Shown piece by piece: positions 27,427-32,715 of a stretch of DNA of 64,000 nucleotides. A program made the position numbers and the translations under genes. A model generated the notes under the pieces. That model searched no databases, had not been told where the DNA came from, and worked only from the letters and a program-made list of their open reading frames with translations. Origin of the DNA: Candidatus Latescibacterota bacterium (GTDB lineage: Bacteria; Krumholzibacteriota; Krumholzibacteriia; WVZY01); contig CAWBQK010000015.1 in NCBI GenBank assembly GCA_963791045.1, positions 192,001 to 256,000 on the forward strand. Reading direction: 5' to 3'. Each line of letters opens with the position of its first letter. The first letter of the stretch is position 1.

Positions 27427-27532
27427 GCCCGCAAAATTTGAGACTGCTTGCTCTGCGATGGGTTGGTGGTATATGCTTTCTTTGTTGGGGGGTCCGTTAA
27501 CCGACGCCATGGTTTCTGAAGGGGGGCTTCTT

Positions 27533-28036
27533 ATGAAATTCATGACGATAACGGTTCTTTTGCTGCCACTCTTGTACTCTCAGTCTTTTTCTCAGGCCTG
27601 CACCAACTCTCTGACGCTGGAATGCCCGCCGGCAAACAACGGTGAAGGCGTGTGGGTTCCTGTTCGAGTGACAAACTGCAGCTCAACGATCGATTCGCTG
27701 GAGTTCGATGTCTACTTCTTCGATCTGGATGTGCAGTTCTATACTGTCGATAAAGCGGGTACGTTACTGGAGGATTGGACCTCGGTCGTGGGAAGCGTTA
27801 TCTGGCCGGGCGGCGCCAGAATAACGGCCTTCGATGCGGGGGGTGGATTCGGGCCGGTTGAGGATGAGCTGCTCATCACGCTCTATTTTGAAGTCGTTAC
27901 GACATCGACCAAGCACTCTTCAATTAGATTGACCAGTCTGCGCGGCGACATCATAGGGTTTGAGATTCAGGATTGTATGATGTCTGTGCCGAACAAACAG
28001 AGTACCTGGGGCCACGTCAAGTCGTTCTATGAGTGA
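27533..28036 (+). CDS. Secreted cohesin-like protein with TWGxxKxxY tail
   Basis: Signal peptide; VPVRV..DSLEFDVYF beta-rich pattern; ends VPNKQSTWGHVKSFYE. Confidence 0.7.
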   Translation: MKFMTITVLLLPLLYSQSFSQACTNSLTLECPPANNGEGVWVPVRVTNCSSTIDSLEFDVYFFDLDVQFYTVDKAGTLLEDWTSVVGSVIWPGGARITAFDAGGGFGPVEDELLITLYFEVVTTSTKHSSIRLTSLRGDIIGFEIQDCMMSVPNKQSTWGHVKSFYE

Positions 28037-28256
28037 TTGCATCATCATCCAGGCCTCGTCAATTGTTACAATGCGTTACAATCCTACCGAGTCGAACCGC
28101 TGCCCTGCCGATTACTATTTGACTTGATGCCGAGTTCCTAGACCATATGGAACCGGCTGGACTCCGGAATTCGTCGTGGATTAGTTTAGGAATGTAAAAC
28201 GTTCCAACTAGAGCCACATGAGTGTTCGCAGCACTCAAAGCAAAAGGAGCCCAGCC

Positions 28257-29354
28257 ATGAGTGAGTATATCTGGATTGGTCTAGACGTGCACGTCGAATC
28301 TATCACAGCTGCTATCCTCGAAGGTGACCAGGAGAAGCCTGACGTAGTTAAGATGTCAGGCGACCTCATGAAGGTCCGGCGTCTTTTTCGGCGGATGGCC
28401 AAGAGGGGGCCCATCCGGGCGTGTTACGAGGCATCGGGAGCCGGGTTTGTTCTGCATCGAGTTCTCAAGCGCGATGGCTTCCACTGCGAGGTTATCGCGC
28501 CGTCACTGATCCCCAGAAAACCCGGGGACAAGAGGAAGACCGATCGGATCGATGCGATGATGCTTGCGAAACTGTATCGGAGTGGCCACTTGACGCCTGT
28601 CCACGTTCCCACCGAAGACCAGGAAGCGATTCGCCGACTCATCCGTCTCCGGTATGCCTATCAAGAACAATGCAAGTCAACCAAACGTCGGATCTCCGGG
28701 ACCTTGCTCTCACACGGCCTGGTCTTTCGGGGAACCAAATCGAAGTGGACGAAGAAACACGTCGCGTGGCTTGAGAAACAGCGGCGAGAACTTACAGGGC
28801 CTGTGCACACGGCGTTAGTCACCGAGCTCGAGCATCTAGAGTATATGCAAACTCAACGTAATGCGCTCGACGGTGATATCGAACGGTATGCCCAAAGTCC
28901 ACCTTATCGAGGGGGCGTTGAGGCTCTTTGTTGTCTGCGGGGAGTTAAGACACTCACTGCCATGACACTCCTTTCAGAAATCGACGATATCCGCCGGTTC
29001 CGTTCACCAAGGGCACTTATGGCGTACCTCGGTCTCGTACCAAAAGAGAAATCCTCCGGGGAGAGAGAGCGAAGGGGATCGATTACAAAAGCTGGAAATA
29101 GTCACGCCAGAAGGGTACTTGTCGAAGCGGCTTGGAACAATCGCCATAGCGCCAGCGCTGATCTCGTCCTGCGCAGGCGACGTCAGGGGCAGCCCCCCGA
29201 AGTGGTTGCTATTGCGATGAAAGCGCAGCACAGGTTGTCACGTAAGTTCTATAGACTCCAGCAAAAGAAACACCCCAACGTCGCCGTGGTCGCCGTCGCC
29301 AGAGAACTATGCGGCTTCGTGTGGGCCATTATGAAAGCAGCGCCTCAGTACTGA
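28257..29354 (+). CDS. IS110-family DEDD transposase/recombinase
   Basis: IGLDVH, CYEAS, KTDRIDA, GV..LTA, YLGLVP..KSSG...GSITKAGN, VAVAREL. Confidence 0.95.
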   Translation: MSEYIWIGLDVHVESITAAILEGDQEKPDVVKMSGDLMKVRRLFRRMAKRGPIRACYEASGAGFVLHRVLKRDGFHCEVIAPSLIPRKPGDKRKTDRIDAMMLAKLYRSGHLTPVHVPTEDQEAIRRLIRLRYAYQEQCKSTKRRISGTLLSHGLVFRGTKSKWTKKHVAWLEKQRRELTGPVHTALVTELEHLEYMQTQRNALDGDIERYAQSPPYRGGVEALCCLRGVKTLTAMTLLSEIDDIRRFRSPRALMAYLGLVPKEKSSGERERRGSITKAGNSHARRVLVEAAWNNRHSASADLVLRRRRQGQPPEVVAIAMKAQHRLSRKFYRLQQKKHPNVAVVAVARELCGFVWAIMKAAPQY

Positions 29355-29379
29355 ACTGAGACGCTGCTTTGAGGAAACC

Positions 29380-29559
29380 TCGAGAGGAGAGCTGCGGTAG
29401 GAGAATCCTCGTTTCAAGTATGTGGTACGGGTCGTAGACCCTAACCCGCGTTCTCTAGACAGAGGCGGCTCCGGACGAACCACTGGGAATGCGGCACGCT
29501 GTTCACAGCCAACCCGCGGATATCAGTCTGATGATCGTCGGTAATCGCTCTCCTCTCGA
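29380..29559 (+). ncRNA. Putative bridge/seek RNA of the IS
   Basis: 180 nt closed by a perfect 13-bp stem TCGAGAGGAGAGC/GCTCTCCTCTCGA; two stem-loops with internal loops matching target and donor junction. Confidence 0.7.
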
Positions 29560-29591
29560 ACAAAACATACTTGACGCCAGCCGGTTCCATA

Positions 29592-32081
29592 TCATTTGAG
29601 AAGCACCATCTTCTTCGTGAGCGTTTGCTTCCCCGCGGTCAGGCGGTAGAAGTAGACGCCCGAACTCACGCGGTTTCCTGCGTTGTCCGTTCCATTCCAC
29701 GCGACATCGTTTGATCCCGTGGGCATCTCTTCGTTCACAAGTGTTCGAATCAATTTGCCGCTGGCGTCGTAGACGTTGAGTGTCACCCAACCCGCTTTCG
29801 GCGACGTGAACGTGATCGTCGTCGATGGATTGAACGGATTCGGGTGGTTCTGGTTTAGAACAAGCTCAGAAGCGTCTATTGTGACTGAAATCGTTTGAGA
29901 GCTGATTTCCCCGCCATCGGCCAGAACCACTCCAAGGGTATACTCGTAGGAGCGTCCCGCACCCGTGCTTGTATCTCTGTACTCCCTAACGTCGGTTGGA
30001 ATTACACTATCCGCGTTAATGAGCTCTCTCACACCGTCTTCTCCAGCGCTTCGATAAATCTTGAATCCGATCACTTCTTCATCCGCCTGAATATCCCACG
30101 TGAGTTCAACGACGGATCCCGCGTTGTGGACCGAAAAACTACTGATAAAAACCGGCACTGGAGCCATGAATACAATGTTCGTCGTACCCGTATACACCAC
30201 TCCCGATATTCCCTGCGGAGTCACACGGTACGTTACCGCCTGCGCCGTGGTCTCACTTATAGCGGGCACAGCAAGCGCAGCTGCCGGAGGGGAAAACGAT
30301 TCGCCCGGTGCCAGCACAGGAGTCGTTCCCGCTAGTGATACAGGATCGCCGTTGTCATCAAGGATTGCTGGACCTGTTGTGAGAACTTCATAACGGAATG
30401 AGAAACTTTCCCCCCACGACTTGTTCTCGATACTGAAACCCGAGAGCGGGAGAACTGGAATCGCCGTATAAGGCGCGATAACCTGATCAGCCGGGTATGT
30501 TGCATCCAAAACAACAGGGCGGTTGTAGAACACACAGACCACCCCTTCGTCATCTCCGCTTCCTATATCCTCGTTTGAAGCACCGACAGCCAGATCGTTT
30601 TTGCCATCACCATTAAAATCACCAACGGCGACCGAGAAGCCGAAATAGTCTTGGGGTTCCGGAGTTGCATAACCGGTGTCCCACTGGTCGAGGTCAAGCA
30701 TCGCCCAGTTTTCAAAATAATGGTAAGGAGGATCCCACTCATCCGCAAAAATCAATGTAACTTCGCCAGCGTCGGTATTTCCGGCAGGGTCGGCAAGGTT
30801 ACGTCCGGCGACAATGTCATCATACCCGTCACCGTTTAGATCCCCGGCAGCCAGGCCGTACTGGCCATTGCCTTCACGTGTTTCATCGAATTTATAGCGG
30901 CGAAGAGAATATCCCGTGACGGGGTCCGTGTCCCTGAAAAACCACTCGCCCCAATTAAGGAGAACATCCGCCGTACCAGAACTACCTCTAATGACGAGAT
31001 CTTCATACCCATCTCCGTCAAAGTCACCAGCCGCGAGAGAACAACCGAAACGATCTCCCTCGTATAGATACTTTCTGTGAATATGTTCATAATAGCCGGT
31101 ATTAGATAAATCCTCTATGGCAACAACGATTCCACAATTCTCTATTTCATCAGAGGAATCAAAATCTTTGTCCCACCCTGGAACTCCTATTGCAAGTCCG
31201 TTGTTACCGACGCTGGCTAAGGAAGACCCAAAAAGAAATTCCGGACTAGGGCCAAGACACTCCCAATCTAATAAGAAATCAAGCGGATCCAATACTTCAT
31301 TGGCAAACAATCCGTGTGCCCAGTTACTGTAGGAACTTCCCTCGACAATGGCAACAGTCCCGAGATCATCGTCCTCCCACAAACAGCCGTTTCCAAGATC
31401 TTCGCCCGGCGATCCTATGGCAAGATCATCATATTGGTCGTCGTTTAATTGAACGACTGCCAGGGCGTAACCGAAACGGTCATCTGCCTCGAGGGACATA
31501 TCGCTCATGTCATCTTGGGAAAACCAGACCGCTGATGCGGGTCCTTCGTTCAGGCCCGCAGCACTGCCAAAGATGATGGTGACACATCCCGCATTGGTCT
31601 CCCCAGCAATGTCGTCGTACGGAGCCCCAGCGGCCAGATCGTCGTAGCCATCTCCGTTAAAGTCACCGCAAGCAAGGGCAAAACCAAACTGATCCCCGGC
31701 TTCAATGTTGCCGCCGGCAACCGTTTGAAAAAAATAGACTCCTGGCCAGTCGGGATCGCCGCACAATCCATTCGCACTCCCGTAAGCTATCAAGACAACG
31801 CCAGCGTTCGACTGACCTGATTGGTCCTCAAGCGGGCATCCATTGGCGAGATCCTCGTAGCCGTCCCCGTTGAAGTCACCGACCGCAGTAACCATCCCAA
31901 AATGGTCGTTGACTTCTGGGAGTCCGCCAAAATCAGCCTGAGTGAGCATTGCAGGCGGGAGGCCACTGGTTGAACTGGTCTTAATCTGTCGCTCGTCTCC
32001 AATTCCATTCGCGGCGGTTGCGGGCGGCACAATCACAACGAAAATCAAGAGAATTAGCGCGGGAAGCATGAATCGATTCAT
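29592..32081 (-). CDS. Secreted FG-GAP (integrin-alpha-like beta-propeller) protein with FlgD-Ig/T9SS-type CTD
   Basis: Repeated FG..LA.GDFNGDGYDDLA.GAP motifs; QNHPNPFNP...KKMVLLK; GGAGGA RBS before ATG 32081. Confidence 0.9.
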   Translation of the reverse strand: MNRFMLPALILLIFVVIVPPATAANGIGDERQIKTSSTSGLPPAMLTQADFGGLPEVNDHFGMVTAVGDFNGDGYEDLANGCPLEDQSGQSNAGVVLIAYGSANGLCGDPDWPGVYFFQTVAGGNIEAGDQFGFALACGDFNGDGYDDLAAGAPYDDIAGETNAGCVTIIFGSAAGLNEGPASAVWFSQDDMSDMSLEADDRFGYALAVVQLNDDQYDDLAIGSPGEDLGNGCLWEDDDLGTVAIVEGSSYSNWAHGLFANEVLDPLDFLLDWECLGPSPEFLFGSSLASVGNNGLAIGVPGWDKDFDSSDEIENCGIVVAIEDLSNTGYYEHIHRKYLYEGDRFGCSLAAGDFDGDGYEDLVIRGSSGTADVLLNWGEWFFRDTDPVTGYSLRRYKFDETREGNGQYGLAAGDLNGDGYDDIVAGRNLADPAGNTDAGEVTLIFADEWDPPYHYFENWAMLDLDQWDTGYATPEPQDYFGFSVAVGDFNGDGKNDLAVGASNEDIGSGDDEGVVCVFYNRPVVLDATYPADQVIAPYTAIPVLPLSGFSIENKSWGESFSFRYEVLTTGPAILDDNGDPVSLAGTTPVLAPGESFSPPAAALAVPAISETTAQAVTYRVTPQGISGVVYTGTTNIVFMAPVPVFISSFSVHNAGSVVELTWDIQADEEVIGFKIYRSAGEDGVRELINADSVIPTDVREYRDTSTGAGRSYEYTLGVVLADGGEISSQTISVTIDASELVLNQNHPNPFNPSTTITFTSPKAGWVTLNVYDASGKLIRTLVNEEMPTGSNDVAWNGTDNAGNRVSSGVYFYRLTAGKQTLTKKMVLLK

Positions 32082-32715
32082 CGAAATTTCCTCCATGAAG
32101 AAGACACATCGTCTACGTCGAGTCGACACGGCAGGTTCTTACGGAATTGTTTATGGATCGTGCGGGAACGGAAGAATTTGAGGCTGTTCAATCTCATCGG
32201 TGTAAGCGCGATTCCGTTTTAAAATCTATACGAGCGGACTTTAGGGTCGGATAAACAAGCTGAACAACTGCGCGTTTGGTATCCGGCAGTTGTCGCATGT
32301 GCTCGTCAGAACGCCAGAGTTGTTACCAATTGTATCACAATCTCTTTAAAATTACCACCCCTGTAAAACCTAACGTTGTGAAACACACAATAAAAGCAAG
32401 TTTAGGGACGTGGTGATTCGTGATGTATCGTCGCAAATGCGTTTTCGAACGACTGCGAACAAGCGCGATCGATTTGTTTGTAAGTATAATCCTAAAAATT
32501 TTGCGACGTTATCGCCCGATACAGTCTTTTTGAAGATTCTCGCGCTTACGGAAAACTGATACGTGAGATAAAGTCCTGCTCTTGGCGCGACGCGATCGTC
32601 AACTTCGGTCTGATCTAGAACGTTGAAGGCAGACGAACACATACATAAACAAACGCCTAGACGATGAACGCCAGGTTTGAATCAGAGAAGACCGTCCCGT
32701 GCCAAATCCAAACTG

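What the first reader, a model, noticed from the sequence alone, without database searches (positions are those of the whole stretch)
29380..29559. Readable bridge/seek RNA with guides for both target and donor
Seen: a 13-bp stem closes 180 nt. Loop 1 (CCTC/GAGG stem) carries TTTCAAGTA and GTTCTCTA. The reconstructed empty target is GAGTTCC-TA-TTTGAGAAG: its minus strand TCTCAAATA matches the first guide 7/9 with both mismatches wobble-compatible, and GTTCCTA resembles the second. Loop 2 (GACGA/TCGTC stem) carries ATATCAG, identical to the predicted circle junction CCATAT-CA-GACC. TTGACG at 29571 could be the junction -35. Established: IS110/IS1111 elements use RNA-guided recombination. Inference: a new programmable recombinase-RNA pair.
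Basis: partly seen in the sequence, partly recalled or inferred. Interest (0 to 1): 0.75.

Follow-up and report, generated by a model that had tools for sequence, protein, structure and literature searches.

The report
Guide RNA of an IS1111-type element
This is the guide ("bridge" or "seek") RNA of a jumping gene of a known RNA-guided family, and it steers the element to the stop codon of genes for proteins exported by the type IX secretion system.

Summary
It is a new member of a known kind, not a new kind.

- **Element.** Window 28141-29594 is a 1454-bp IS1111-group (IS110 family) insertion sequence. It has an intact DEDD/Ser transposase, a perfect 16-bp subterminal inverted repeat and a 240-nt 3' non-coding region.
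- **RNA.** The region 29380-29559 folds into a 13-bp closing stem around two internal loops.
- **Conservation.** A covariance model finds this RNA directly 3' of the transposase gene in 115 of 127 distinct sources searched. 96% of cells are paired and 23 of 40 pairs show compensatory changes.
- **Target loop.** Five nt plus UA pair with the first five nt of the right flank and the core. The 3' side copies 1-2 nt of left flank, the core, and three nt of the element's own left end (a "handshake").
- **Donor loop.** It copies the last six nt of the right end (92 of 94 loci) and pairs with left-end nt 3-5.
- **Target.** The target is the stop codon plus the last codons of T9SS C-terminal-sorting-domain genes (60 of 68 right-flank ORFs). 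The element's end supplies a replacement stop codon.
- **Cores.** Donor and target cores differ (CA versus TA here).

Activity, RNA expression and cleavage chemistry are inferred, not shown.

The parts
28141..29594 (+). Whole IS1111-type insertion sequence (1454 bp), from left-end nt 1 (G) to the right-end terminal TCA
   Evidence: The conserved ends are aligned in homologs. Near-identical copies in metagenome runs share sequence from 28137 onward but not the flanks. It is a single copy in its own genome.
28137..28140 (+). Left junction. Left-target nt -2 and -1 (CC) plus the target core TA. On the minus strand, nt 28138-28140 (CTA) read TAG, the orphaned original stop codon.
   Evidence: Identity to the loop-1 3' side across 55 loci: LT-1 0.80, Y 0.98, A 0.96. 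Paralogous T9SS gene ends in the genome read CTCAAA+TAG.
28145..28160 (+). Left arm of the subterminal inverted repeat
   Evidence: I1: 16 nt, 100% complementary to 29577-29592.
28141..28146 (+). Left-end nt 1-6 (GACCAT). Nt 1-3 are copied in the loop-1 handshake, nt 3-5 pair with loop 2, and the hexamer is a candidate junction -10.
28218..29354 (+). Transposase gene (378 aa; an alternative ATG lies at 28257)
   Evidence: Pfam DEDD_Tnp_IS110 (2e-17) and Transposase_20 (1.1e-22). It aligns to the IS621 and ISCro4 transposases. The IGLDV, CYEASG, KTDRIDA and GLVPKEKSSG motifs are present.
29380..29559 (+). Bridge/long-seek RNA (covariance-model hit 29377-29562)
29414..29420 (+). Loop-1 5' side. 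The right-target guide UCAAG pairs with flank 29595-99 (4 Watson-Crick pairs plus 1 G.T). UA pairs with the target core TA.
   Evidence: n=84; z 4.2-8.9; window 5 of 5 with wobble.
29454..29460 (+). Loop-1 3' side. The left-target guide is UC (only C matches here). It is followed by core UA and the handshake GAC, which equals left-end nt 1-3.
   Evidence: (n=55): LE2 0.93, LE3 0.71 (z 7.5).
29484..29486 (+). Loop-2 5' side. The right-donor guide UGG pairs with left-end nt 3-5 (CCA, 28143-45).
   Evidence: (n=55): 0.75, 0.82, 0.75; z 8.5, 7.0, 6.8.
29520..29527 (+). Loop-2 3' side. ATATCA equals the last 6 nt of the right end (left-donor guide including core CA). G equals left-end nt 1. U equals right-flank nt 2 (handshake).
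   Evidence: triplet identical in 92 of 94 loci; nt 9 equals RT2 in 76 of 88 (z 7.4); at least 10 changes on the tnp tree and 5 of 5 independent pairs co-change.
29571..29576 (+). Conserved -35-like TTGACG, 18 nt before the right end
29577..29592 (+). Right arm of the subterminal inverted repeat
   Evidence: I1.
29592..29594 (-). IS-borne TCA, which is the TGA stop codon now ending the T9SS cargo gene
29595..29599 (+). Right-target nt 1-5 (TTTGA), the reverse complement of the last codons (..L K) of the target gene
29595..32129 (-). Target gene: an FG-GAP repeat protein with a T9SS C-terminal sorting domain (845 aa including the IS-supplied stop)
   Evidence: FG-GAP 2.9e-45, FlgD_ig, Por_Secre_tail 2.9e-07, CHU_C.

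Best explanation
Window 28141-29594 is an intact IS1111-group (IS110 family) insertion sequence. Its 3' non-coding region encodes a ~180-nt bridge RNA (a long seekRNA), closed by a 13-bp stem and holding two internal loops.

**Target loop (loop 1)**
- Its 3' side (C-UA-GAC) has the sense of the top strand of the last left-flank nt plus the core.
- It then runs on into the first three nt of the element's own left end. This handshake fits only the recombined left junction.

**Donor loop (loop 2)**
- Its 3' side (AUAUCA-G-U) has the sense of the last six nt of the right end plus left-end nt 1.
- It then carries one nt that copies right-flank nt 2 (the reciprocal handshake).
- Its 5' side (UGG) pairs with left-end nt 3-5.

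**Inferred mechanism**
- The transposase (DEDD plus Ser) excises the element as a circle.
- The abutted ends form a promoter (conserved TTGACN plus GACCAT) that drives tnp and the RNA.
- The RNA-protein complex recombines the circle junction with a 9-bp site: the stop codon plus the last five coding nt of a T9SS C-terminal-domain gene.
- The element's terminal TCA replaces the gene's TAG, so the cargo gene stays intact.

**Shown here:** the anatomy, the conservation, the covariation of all four guide segments and both handshakes, and the target class.

**Inferred:** RNA expression and its ends, RNA binding to the transposase, circle formation, the cleavage positions and present-day activity.
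For: **Family membership**
- Pfam hits to both IS110-family domains.
- IS621 and ISCro4 transposases are the only PDB hits, and the catalytic motifs align.
- 16-bp perfect subterminal inverted repeat.

**RNA conservation and structure**
- The model R1 finds the RNA just 3' of tnp in 42 of 48 and 74 of 80 sources. Five of the six misses have under 70 nt of contig after tnp.
- Structure on A4: 96.4% of cells paired, 23 of 40 pairs with changes on both sides, and 0 of 500 shuffles reach any measure. Slid controls give 37-58% paired.

**Guide-DNA covariation**
- Right-target guide against RT1-5: Watson-Crick fractions .68.95.92.62.94; z 5.2-8.9; n=84.
- With wobble, 53 of 82 distinct pairs score 5/5 and 23 score 4/5. 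Shuffled sets give 19.8 and 30.0.
- The target core is read on both strands: 101 of 102 loci concordant, and 13 of 13 phylogenetically independent pairs co-change, p=0.0002.
- Left-junction identities are given.
- Donor guides.

**Target class**
- 60 of 68 distinct right-flank ORF tails hit FlgD_ig, Por_Secre_tail or CHU_C.

**Junction promoter**
- 43 of 45 circle junctions would have an A2/T6 hexamer 16-19 nt from TTGACN. The inserted-state control gives 6 of 85.
- There is no sigma-70-like promoter in the inserted state.

**Mobility**
- Sediment metagenome runs X1 and X2 hold near-identical pieces (0-3 other letters in most) over most of 28137-29559. X3 holds pieces from 28309 with somewhat more differences. 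None holds the flanks.

**Agreement with published work**
- The layout matches the IS1111 order, with the top-strand match 5' of the bottom-strand match (PMC11187229, sections 9, 10 and 12 read).
- It also matches the IS621 handshake model (PMC11208158, passages read).
Against: - There is no direct evidence of RNA, circle or transposition. The only RNA-library signal is one contig of a relative, and that may be DNA.
- The element is single copy, although at least 13 vacant compatible sites exist in the genome.
- The window's own guides are imperfect. RT1 is a G.T wobble, LT-2 is mismatched, the right-donor guide is only 3 bp, and the junction -10 matches only 3 of 6.
- No empty site could be found in relatives. 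The exact boundaries therefore rest on family comparison.
- Six of 82 loci pair at 3 or fewer of 5 positions.
- The structural alignment was fitted to the model, which flatters pair counts.
- For ISEc11, an 82-nt RNA holding the two target-matching segments was enough (PMC11187229), so the donor loop may be dispensable.
- Rfam gives no hit.
Confidence: 0.85

Rival explanations
1. The RNA guides target choice only. The element's ends are recognised by the transposase through the 16-bp subterminal repeats, and loop 2 is a structural or protein-binding module whose likeness to the right end is inherited rather than functional.
For: - An 82-nt seekRNA containing the two target-matching segments sufficed for ISEc11 (PMC11187229, section 10).
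- Long subterminal repeats are the hallmark of IS1111 elements (PMC11187229; PMC11208160).
- The window's right-donor guide is only 3 bp.
- Loop 2 and the right end lie 60 nt apart in one element, so they are inherited together.
Against: - The right-end triplet and loop-2 nt 5-7 agree in 92 of 94 loci through at least 10 changes on the tnp tree. All 5 independent pairs co-change.
- Loop-2 5' nt covary with left-end nt 3-5, which lie 1.3 kb away (z 6.8-8.5).
- Loop-2 nt 9 tracks right-flank nt 2, which lies outside the element (76 of 88, z 7.4). This is hard to explain without loop 2 meeting DNA.
Confidence: 0.1
2. The RNA gene is genuine but the copy in this window is an inactive relic that no longer moves in this host.
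For: - It is single copy despite 13 vacant compatible T9SS gene ends.
- The junction -10 is weak.
- There are a wobble and a mismatch to its own site.
- No promoter was found in the inserted state.
Against: - The 378-aa ORF is open and carries all catalytic motifs.
- The subterminal repeat is perfect.
- The RNA scores 178.6 bits, like its relatives.
- Near-identical pieces occur in other sediment metagenomes without this locus's flanks.
- Silence in the inserted state is the expected behaviour of this family.
Confidence: 0.15
3. The fold is an ordinary 3' UTR, terminator or chance palindrome, and the matches to the flanks are coincidence.
For: - Short matches of 5-9 nt are common by chance.
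- The 246-nt context folds only at z = -1.9.
Against: - Conservation across about 115 loci with compensatory changes.
- Guide-flank covariation against shuffled pairings.
- No terminator-like site.
Confidence: 0.01

Closest known systems
IS1111-family seekRNAs of ISEc11, ISPa11, ISKpn4 and ISPst6 (Siddiquee et al. 2024, PMC11187229)
   Same: - DEDD transposase with the GL-P----SG motif.
- Subterminal inverted repeats.
- A long non-coding region downstream of tnp.
- An RNA with the top-strand target match 5' of the bottom-strand match.
- A long form of 145-170 nt, co-transcribed from a junction promoter.
   Different: - The transposase is longer (378 aa against the 330-350 quoted there).
- The target is a T9SS cargo-gene end, not REP, attC or Tn21 ends.
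- Donor guides and handshakes are resolved here by covariation. In the sections I read, that paper reports no matches to the element's ends.
- Nothing is shown experimentally here.
IS621 bridge RNA (Durrant et al. 2024, PMC11208160; Hiraizumi et al. 2024, PMC11208158)
   Same: - Two internal loops, one for the target and one for the donor.
- Each loop reads one strand on each side of a shared core.
- Handshake nucleotides fit the non-cognate partner after strand exchange.
- Read on the opposite strand, the layout is the same: the longer guide on the 5' side, and the short guide plus handshake on the 3' side. The donor core then reads CT.
   Different: - The RNA lies 3' of tnp, and one closing stem encloses both loops.
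- The right-target guide is 5 nt and the left-target guide 1-2 nt (IS621 has a 7-nt left side).
- The loop-2 5' guide skips the two nt next to the core.
- Donor and target cores are often unlike (TA versus CA), so only one A is common.
- Transposase similarity is low (E 2.7e-6).
ISEc21 (IS110 group), which targets conserved codons of IS3-family transposase genes (PMC11187229, section 12)
   Same: An RNA-guided IS whose multi-copy target is a conserved protein-coding motif.
   Different: - ISEc21 interrupts the gene. This clade inserts at the stop codon and brings a new stop, leaving the reading frame unchanged.
- The RNA is upstream in ISEc21.

Membership tests
IS110 family, IS1111 group | N-terminal DEDD (RuvC-like) domain | tested here: met
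   PF01548, 2e-17. IGLDV, CYEASG and KTDRIDA align with the IS621/ISCro4 motifs. The IS621 residue numbers D11/E60/D102/D105 come from PMC11208158.
IS110 family, IS1111 group | C-terminal Tnp domain with the GL-P----S(T)G motif | tested here: met
   PF02371, 1.1e-22. GLVPKEKSSG aligns to the IS621 Ser region. The motif is as worded in PMC11187229, section 6.
IS110 family, IS1111 group | Subterminal inverted repeats of 7-17 bp | tested here: met
   16 bp, 100%, set 4 and 2 nt in from the ends.
IS110 family, IS1111 group | Longer non-coding region downstream of tnp | tested here: met
   240 nt (29355-29594) against 77 nt upstream.
IS110 family, IS1111 group | Circular intermediate with a junction promoter | not testable with these tools
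   Only indirect evidence: a conserved TTGACN 15-19 nt from the end, and an A2/T6 hexamer across the junction in 43 of 45 loci.
Bridge RNA / seekRNA | Conserved structured RNA gene in the non-coding end with two internal loops | tested here: met
Bridge RNA / seekRNA | Target loop complementary to both strands of the insertion site, overlapping at the core | tested here: met
   The left side is only 1-2 nt.
Bridge RNA / seekRNA | Donor loop complementary to both ends of the element | tested here: met
   The window's right-donor guide is 3 bp.
Bridge RNA / seekRNA | Handshake positions fitting the non-cognate DNA | tested here: met
   Loop-1 GAN equals left-end nt 1-3. Loop-2 nt 9 equals RT2.
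Bridge RNA / seekRNA | Identical core dinucleotide in donor and target (the IS621 rule) | tested here: not met
   Window: target TA, donor CA. Cores are unlike in 40 of 49 loci judged from junctions and in 68 of 95 judged from RNA-encoded cores.
Bridge RNA / seekRNA | RNA binds the transposase and is required for transposition; guides are reprogrammable | not testable with these tools
Rfam families | Match to a curated covariance model | tested here: not met
   0 matches at E<=1 over 27500-30200.

The most novel reading that the evidence does not exclude
This is a widespread clade of RNA-guided IS elements in T9SS-bearing (FCB-group) phyla. It has specialised on a protein-sorting signal.

- **Target.** Its guide reads the stop codon plus the last codons of T9SS cargo genes. 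This gives dozens of harmless sites per genome.
- **Stop-codon swap.** The element's terminal triplet is the reverse complement of a stop codon in 92 of 94 loci, so it swaps the stop and leaves the gene intact.
- **Unlike cores.** Donor and target cores are usually unlike. Each junction always keeps the information of one strand. This suggests that the outcome is set by the first strand exchange, as if by replication or biased repair.
- **Possible immunity.** Core non-identity may also protect an occupied site from re-insertion by the same element while opening it to sister elements (the tandem in L102).
Probability: 0.3. Interest if true: 0.55.

Novelty: new member of a known kind. Interest (0 to 1): 0.38.

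Why it matters
- **A readable guide code.** It gives a complete, comparatively derived guide code for an uncultured IS1111 clade: 5+2 nt right-target, 1-2+2 nt left-target, 6 nt left-donor, 3-4 nt right-donor and two handshakes. That makes the recombinase-RNA pair directly testable as a programmable tool.
- **Handshake logic.** It extends the IS621 handshake logic to the IS1111 arrangement.
- **Core rule.** It shows natural elements whose donor and target cores differ. This bears on how strictly core identity is needed.
- **Biology.** It identifies T9SS cargo-gene ends as a multi-copy safe landing site, with the stop codon replaced by the element.

Tried and rejected
- **Rfam.** An E-value scan of 27500-30200 gave nothing.
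- **Own genome.** There are no further IS copies. Only the right flank recurs, as other T9SS gene ends.
- **Empty site.** The left-flank ORF has only 28-32% identical hits in 2 of 12 family genomes, so there is no orthologous uninterrupted site. The empty-site reconstruction stays indirect.
- **Sequencing runs.**
  - No run held half of the stretch.
  - Laid contigs gave no joint across 28141-29594 and no circle junction.
  - The flanks were uncovered, so this says nothing about excision.
  - The RNA-library contig over 29400-29594 is from a relative with a 45-nt insert. It cannot show transcription.
- **Promoter and terminator scan.** None was found in the inserted state.
- **RT6-7 pairing.**
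- **Left-flank nt -3 to -5.** No signal.
- **Loop-2 nt 10 against RT3.** No positive signal.
- **Self-complementarity.** The 10-nt match 29414-23 / 29565-74 as a regulatory pairing is not conserved in relatives, so it is probably coincidence with the -35 box.
- **Core non-identity as target immunity.** 27 of 95 elements have like cores, and the independent-pairs test is underpowered (3 same way, 0 opposite, 2 no difference). It is kept only as speculation.
- **Literature.**
  - Three full-text searches were run.
  - They used 'IS110'+'T9SS'+'insertion sequence', 'IS1111'+'stop codon'+'target site', and 'type IX secretion'+'bridge RNA'.
  - By title and abstract, none of the listed papers concerns this target. 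I opened none of them apart from PMC11187229, in which 'stop codon' does not occur.
  - Figures, the supplementary tables of Durrant 2024 and Siddiquee 2024, and ISfinder could not be seen. They may already list relatives.
- **Earlier notes of this scan.** None for this genome or this sequence.

Full report
**Observation.**
- A 13-bp perfect stem (29380-29392 with 29547-29559) closes 180 nt (I7).
- That stretch folds at -77 kcal/mol. Its z-score is -3.6 and 0 of 200 shuffles fold as well.
- With 25 nt more on the 5' side and 41 nt more on the 3' side, the z-score falls to -1.9.
- Inside are two internal loops, each capped by a UGYGG/CCGCG hairpin.
- Loop 1 is closed by CCTC/GAGG. It has GTTTCAAGTA on its 5' side (29411-20) and TTCTCTAGACA on its 3' side (29451-61).
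- Loop 2 is closed by GACGA/TCGTC. It has ACCACTGGGAA (29479-89) and GATATCAGTCTGATGA (29519-34).

**The element.**
- Immediately upstream lies a 378-aa ORF (28218-29354). It has both Pfam domains of IS110-family transposases.
- The only solved structures it matches are the IS621 and ISCro4 transposases (E about 3e-6).
- The DEDD motifs and the GLVPKEKSSG serine motif align with them.
- A perfect 16-nt inverted repeat sits just inside both ends (28145-60 and 29577-92).
- The long non-coding region is downstream of tnp.
- These are the marks of the IS1111 group as set out in PMC11187229 (section 6 read) and PMC11208160 (passages read).
- From the family comparison below, the element runs from G 28141 to A 29594 (1454 bp).
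- It is the only copy in its 3.66-Mb, 81%-complete genome.

**Conservation of the RNA.**
- Transposase homologs occur in 50 of 208 genomes of the phylum at E<=1e-30.
- Further loci came from a genome collection (32 loci) and a metagenome collection (79 loci kept of 146 relatives).
- A covariance model built from 13 aligned 3' regions finds the RNA in 42 of 48 and 74 of 80 sources. It is always on the tnp strand, directly after the gene.
- Four extra weak hits are antisense echoes of the same places.
- Of the six sources without a hit, five have under 70 nt of contig after tnp.
- On the 73 distinct rows of alignment A4, 96.4% of cells are standard pairs and 23 of 40 pairs show changes on both sides.
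- None of 500 shuffles reaches any measure. Sliding the partner by 1-3 columns drops pairing to 37-58%.
- The alignment was fitted to the model, which favours it. The apical helix of loop 1 nevertheless changes on both sides in up to 28 rows.

**Guide code.**
- I cut the four loop sides out of the model alignments for 115 loci, of which 108 are distinct. I compared them with each locus's own ends and flanks, using re-pairing of loci as the control.
- *Loop-1 5' side.*
  - Its nt -3 to -7 are Watson-Crick complementary to right-flank nt 1-5. The fractions are .68, .95, .92, .62 and .94, with z 5.2, 8.9, 7.2, 6.7 and 4.2 (n=84).
  - Flank nt 6-7 give no signal.
  - Counting wobble, 53 of 82 distinct pairs have 5 of 5 and 23 have 4 of 5. 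Shuffled sets give 19.8 and 30.0.
  - Six loci have 3 or fewer: L007, L058, L074, L102, L108 and L131.
  - The last two nt are UA or UG.
- *Loop-1 3' side.*
  - It has the sense of the left junction. The identities are LT-2 .49 (z 3.3), LT-1 .80 (z 4.6), core Y .98 and A .96.
  - It continues into the element: G 1.0, left-end nt 2 .93 and nt 3 .71 (z 7.5).
  - LT-3 and beyond, and left-end nt 4, give nothing (n=55).
- *Core read on both strands.*
  - The two sides of loop 1 read the same core. UA goes with YUAG and UG with NCAG in 101 of 102 loci.
  - There are 14 changes on a tnp tree, and 13 of 13 independent pairs change together (p=0.0002).
- *Loop-2 3' side.*
  - Its nt 2-7 equal the last six nt of the right end.
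  - The variable triplet (TCA, CTA or TTA) agrees in 92 of 94 loci (z 9.6).
  - There are at least 10 changes on the tree, and 5 of 5 independent pairs change together. The sign test cannot go below 0.06 with five pairs.
  - Nt 8 is G, which equals left-end nt 1.
  - Nt 9 equals right-flank nt 2 in 76 of 88 loci (z 7.4). Nt 10 shows no positive signal.
- *Loop-2 5' side.* Its nt -4, -5, -6 and (-7) pair with left-end nt 3, 4, 5 and (6). The fractions are .75.82.75 and .65, with z 8.5, 7.0, 6.8 and 3.3 (n=55).
- *The window itself.*
  - UCAAG-UA pairs with TTTGA plus the TA core (four Watson-Crick pairs and one G.T).
  - C-UA-GAC equals the left junction, although LT-2 is mismatched.
  - AUAUCA-G-U equals the right end plus G plus RT2.
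  - UGG pairs with CCA of the left end.
  - The first target guide and the donor match are right.
  - The second target guide is mostly core plus handshake.

**Cores and junctions.**
- Target and donor cores vary independently. From junctions, the counts are target TA with donor CA 31, CA with TA 9, TA with TA 6, CA with CA 1 and others 2 (n=49).
- From the RNA-encoded cores the counts are 49, 19, 25 and 2 of 95.
- In every informative case the left junction keeps the target's pyrimidine and the right junction keeps the donor's. Only the A is common to both partners at the crossover.
- Read on the opposite strand, the layout becomes that of IS621.
  - The longer guide is on the 5' side of each loop.
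  - The short guide plus handshake is on the 3' side.
  - The donor core reads CT.
  - The handshakes fall on the positions found for IS621 (PMC11208158, passages read).
- IS621's rule of identical cores is not met here.
- Which bonds are cut cannot be read from sequence.

**Target.**
- The right flank is the reverse complement of the last codons of a gene on the other strand.
- In the window this gene is an 845-aa FG-GAP protein with a T9SS C-terminal sorting domain.
- Of 101 loci with a called right end, 18 had under 40 codons of flank.
- Of the remaining distinct tails, 10 were ORFs under 40 aa and 68 were scanned.
- 60 of the 68 hit FlgD_ig, Por_Secre_tail or CHU_C at E<=0.01, and 58 hit one of the two T9SS models. 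Many are below Pfam's cut-off because only 100 aa were given.
- The misses were L033, L034, L058, L061, L075 (a reverse transcriptase), L086, L115 and L142.
- The tails read ..SGVYFYRL..(K/R)MVLLK.
- The element's last three nt are the reverse complement of a stop codon in 92 of 94 loci. The cargo gene therefore ends where it did, while its old stop codon is left at the left junction (CTA in the window).
- The host genome has 83 ORF ends with such a tail by my pattern. 13 vacant ones fit the window's guide.
- Record titles place relatives in Krumholzibacteriota, Latescibacterota, Gemmatimonadota, Bacteroidota, Ignavibacteriota, Fibrobacteraceae and Eisenbacteria bins.

**Expression and activity (inferred).**
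- No sigma-70-like promoter or terminator lies in 28000-29700.
- TTGACN is conserved 15-19 nt from the right end.
- Across the abutted ends, 43 of 45 distinct loci would have a hexamer with A2 and T6 at 16-19 nt. In the inserted state the figure is 6 of 85.
- The window's own hexamer is GACCAT at 18 nt, which is weak.
- This fits the junction promoter known for the family (PMC11187229, introduction and discussion passages).
- Runs X1 and X2 hold near-identical contig pieces (0-3 other letters in most) over most of 28137-29559. X3 holds pieces from 28309 with up to 8 other letters. None holds the flanks. One contig diverges 4 nt left of the element.
- So the same element sits elsewhere. No empty site, circle or transcript was seen.

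**Comparison and novelty.**
- Bridge RNAs were predicted in the right end of 93% of IS1111 elements (PMC11208160).
- IS1111 seekRNAs were shown to bind the transposase and to be reprogrammable (PMC11187229).
- This element is a new, well-resolved member of that kind.
- These points may be new:
  - the T9SS cargo-gene stop codon as target;
  - the stop-codon replacement;
  - the very short left-target guide;
  - the frequent non-identity of cores.
- By title and abstract, three full-text searches listed no paper on this target. I could not see figures, supplements or ISfinder.

Noticed in passing
L102:876-3188: Two different members of the family lie in tandem. The right end of the first (..ATATCA) abuts the left end (GACTAC..) of a second, whose tnp runs from 2353 to the contig end. 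The second seems to have used the TCA-plus-flank site recreated by the first.
   Followed up: partly
window 29414-29423 and 29565-29574: There is a 10-nt perfect complementarity between the loop-1 5' guide and a stretch of the element's own right end. That stretch contains TA+CTTGA, the ideal target of this guide, and overlaps the -35-like box. It is not conserved in relatives with other guides.
   Followed up: partly
window 29334-29370: A 16-nt hairpin (94% complementary) spans the tnp stop codon (-23.5 kcal/mol; homolog median -15.9).
   Followed up: partly
right ends of 94 loci (for example window 29592-29594): The terminal triplet of the element is TCA (51), CTA (39) or TTA (2), always the reverse complement of a stop codon. 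The exceptions are CTG and TCG, once each. CCA is never seen.
   Followed up: partly
own genome G000 (21 contigs): 83 ORF ends have a T9SS-CTD-like tail (stops: TAA 39, TAG 32, TGA 12). 13 vacant ends fit the window guide (TCAAR plus TAG or TAA), yet the IS is single copy.
   Followed up: partly
window 29529-29534 and the same place in relatives: UGAUGA next to the GACGA/UCGUC stem of loop 2 is nearly invariant and does not match any end or flank. It may be a protein-binding or kink-like motif (recalled idea, untested).
   Followed up: no
L015, L030: Two relatives appear decayed. L015 has no RNA hit. L030 has only a partial, low-scoring one (67.7 bits, model positions 15-160), although the right end and a T9SS flank are present.
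   Followed up: no
window 27458-28036: A 192-aa ORF left of the element has no Pfam family. It has only 28-32% identical relatives in 2 of 12 family genomes.
   Followed up: partly
run X20 laid on window 29400-29594: A metatranscriptome-library contig of 238 nt covers the RNA region of a relative. It has a 45-nt insert at 29539-43 and stops one nt past the right end. It cannot be told from DNA carry-over.
   Followed up: no
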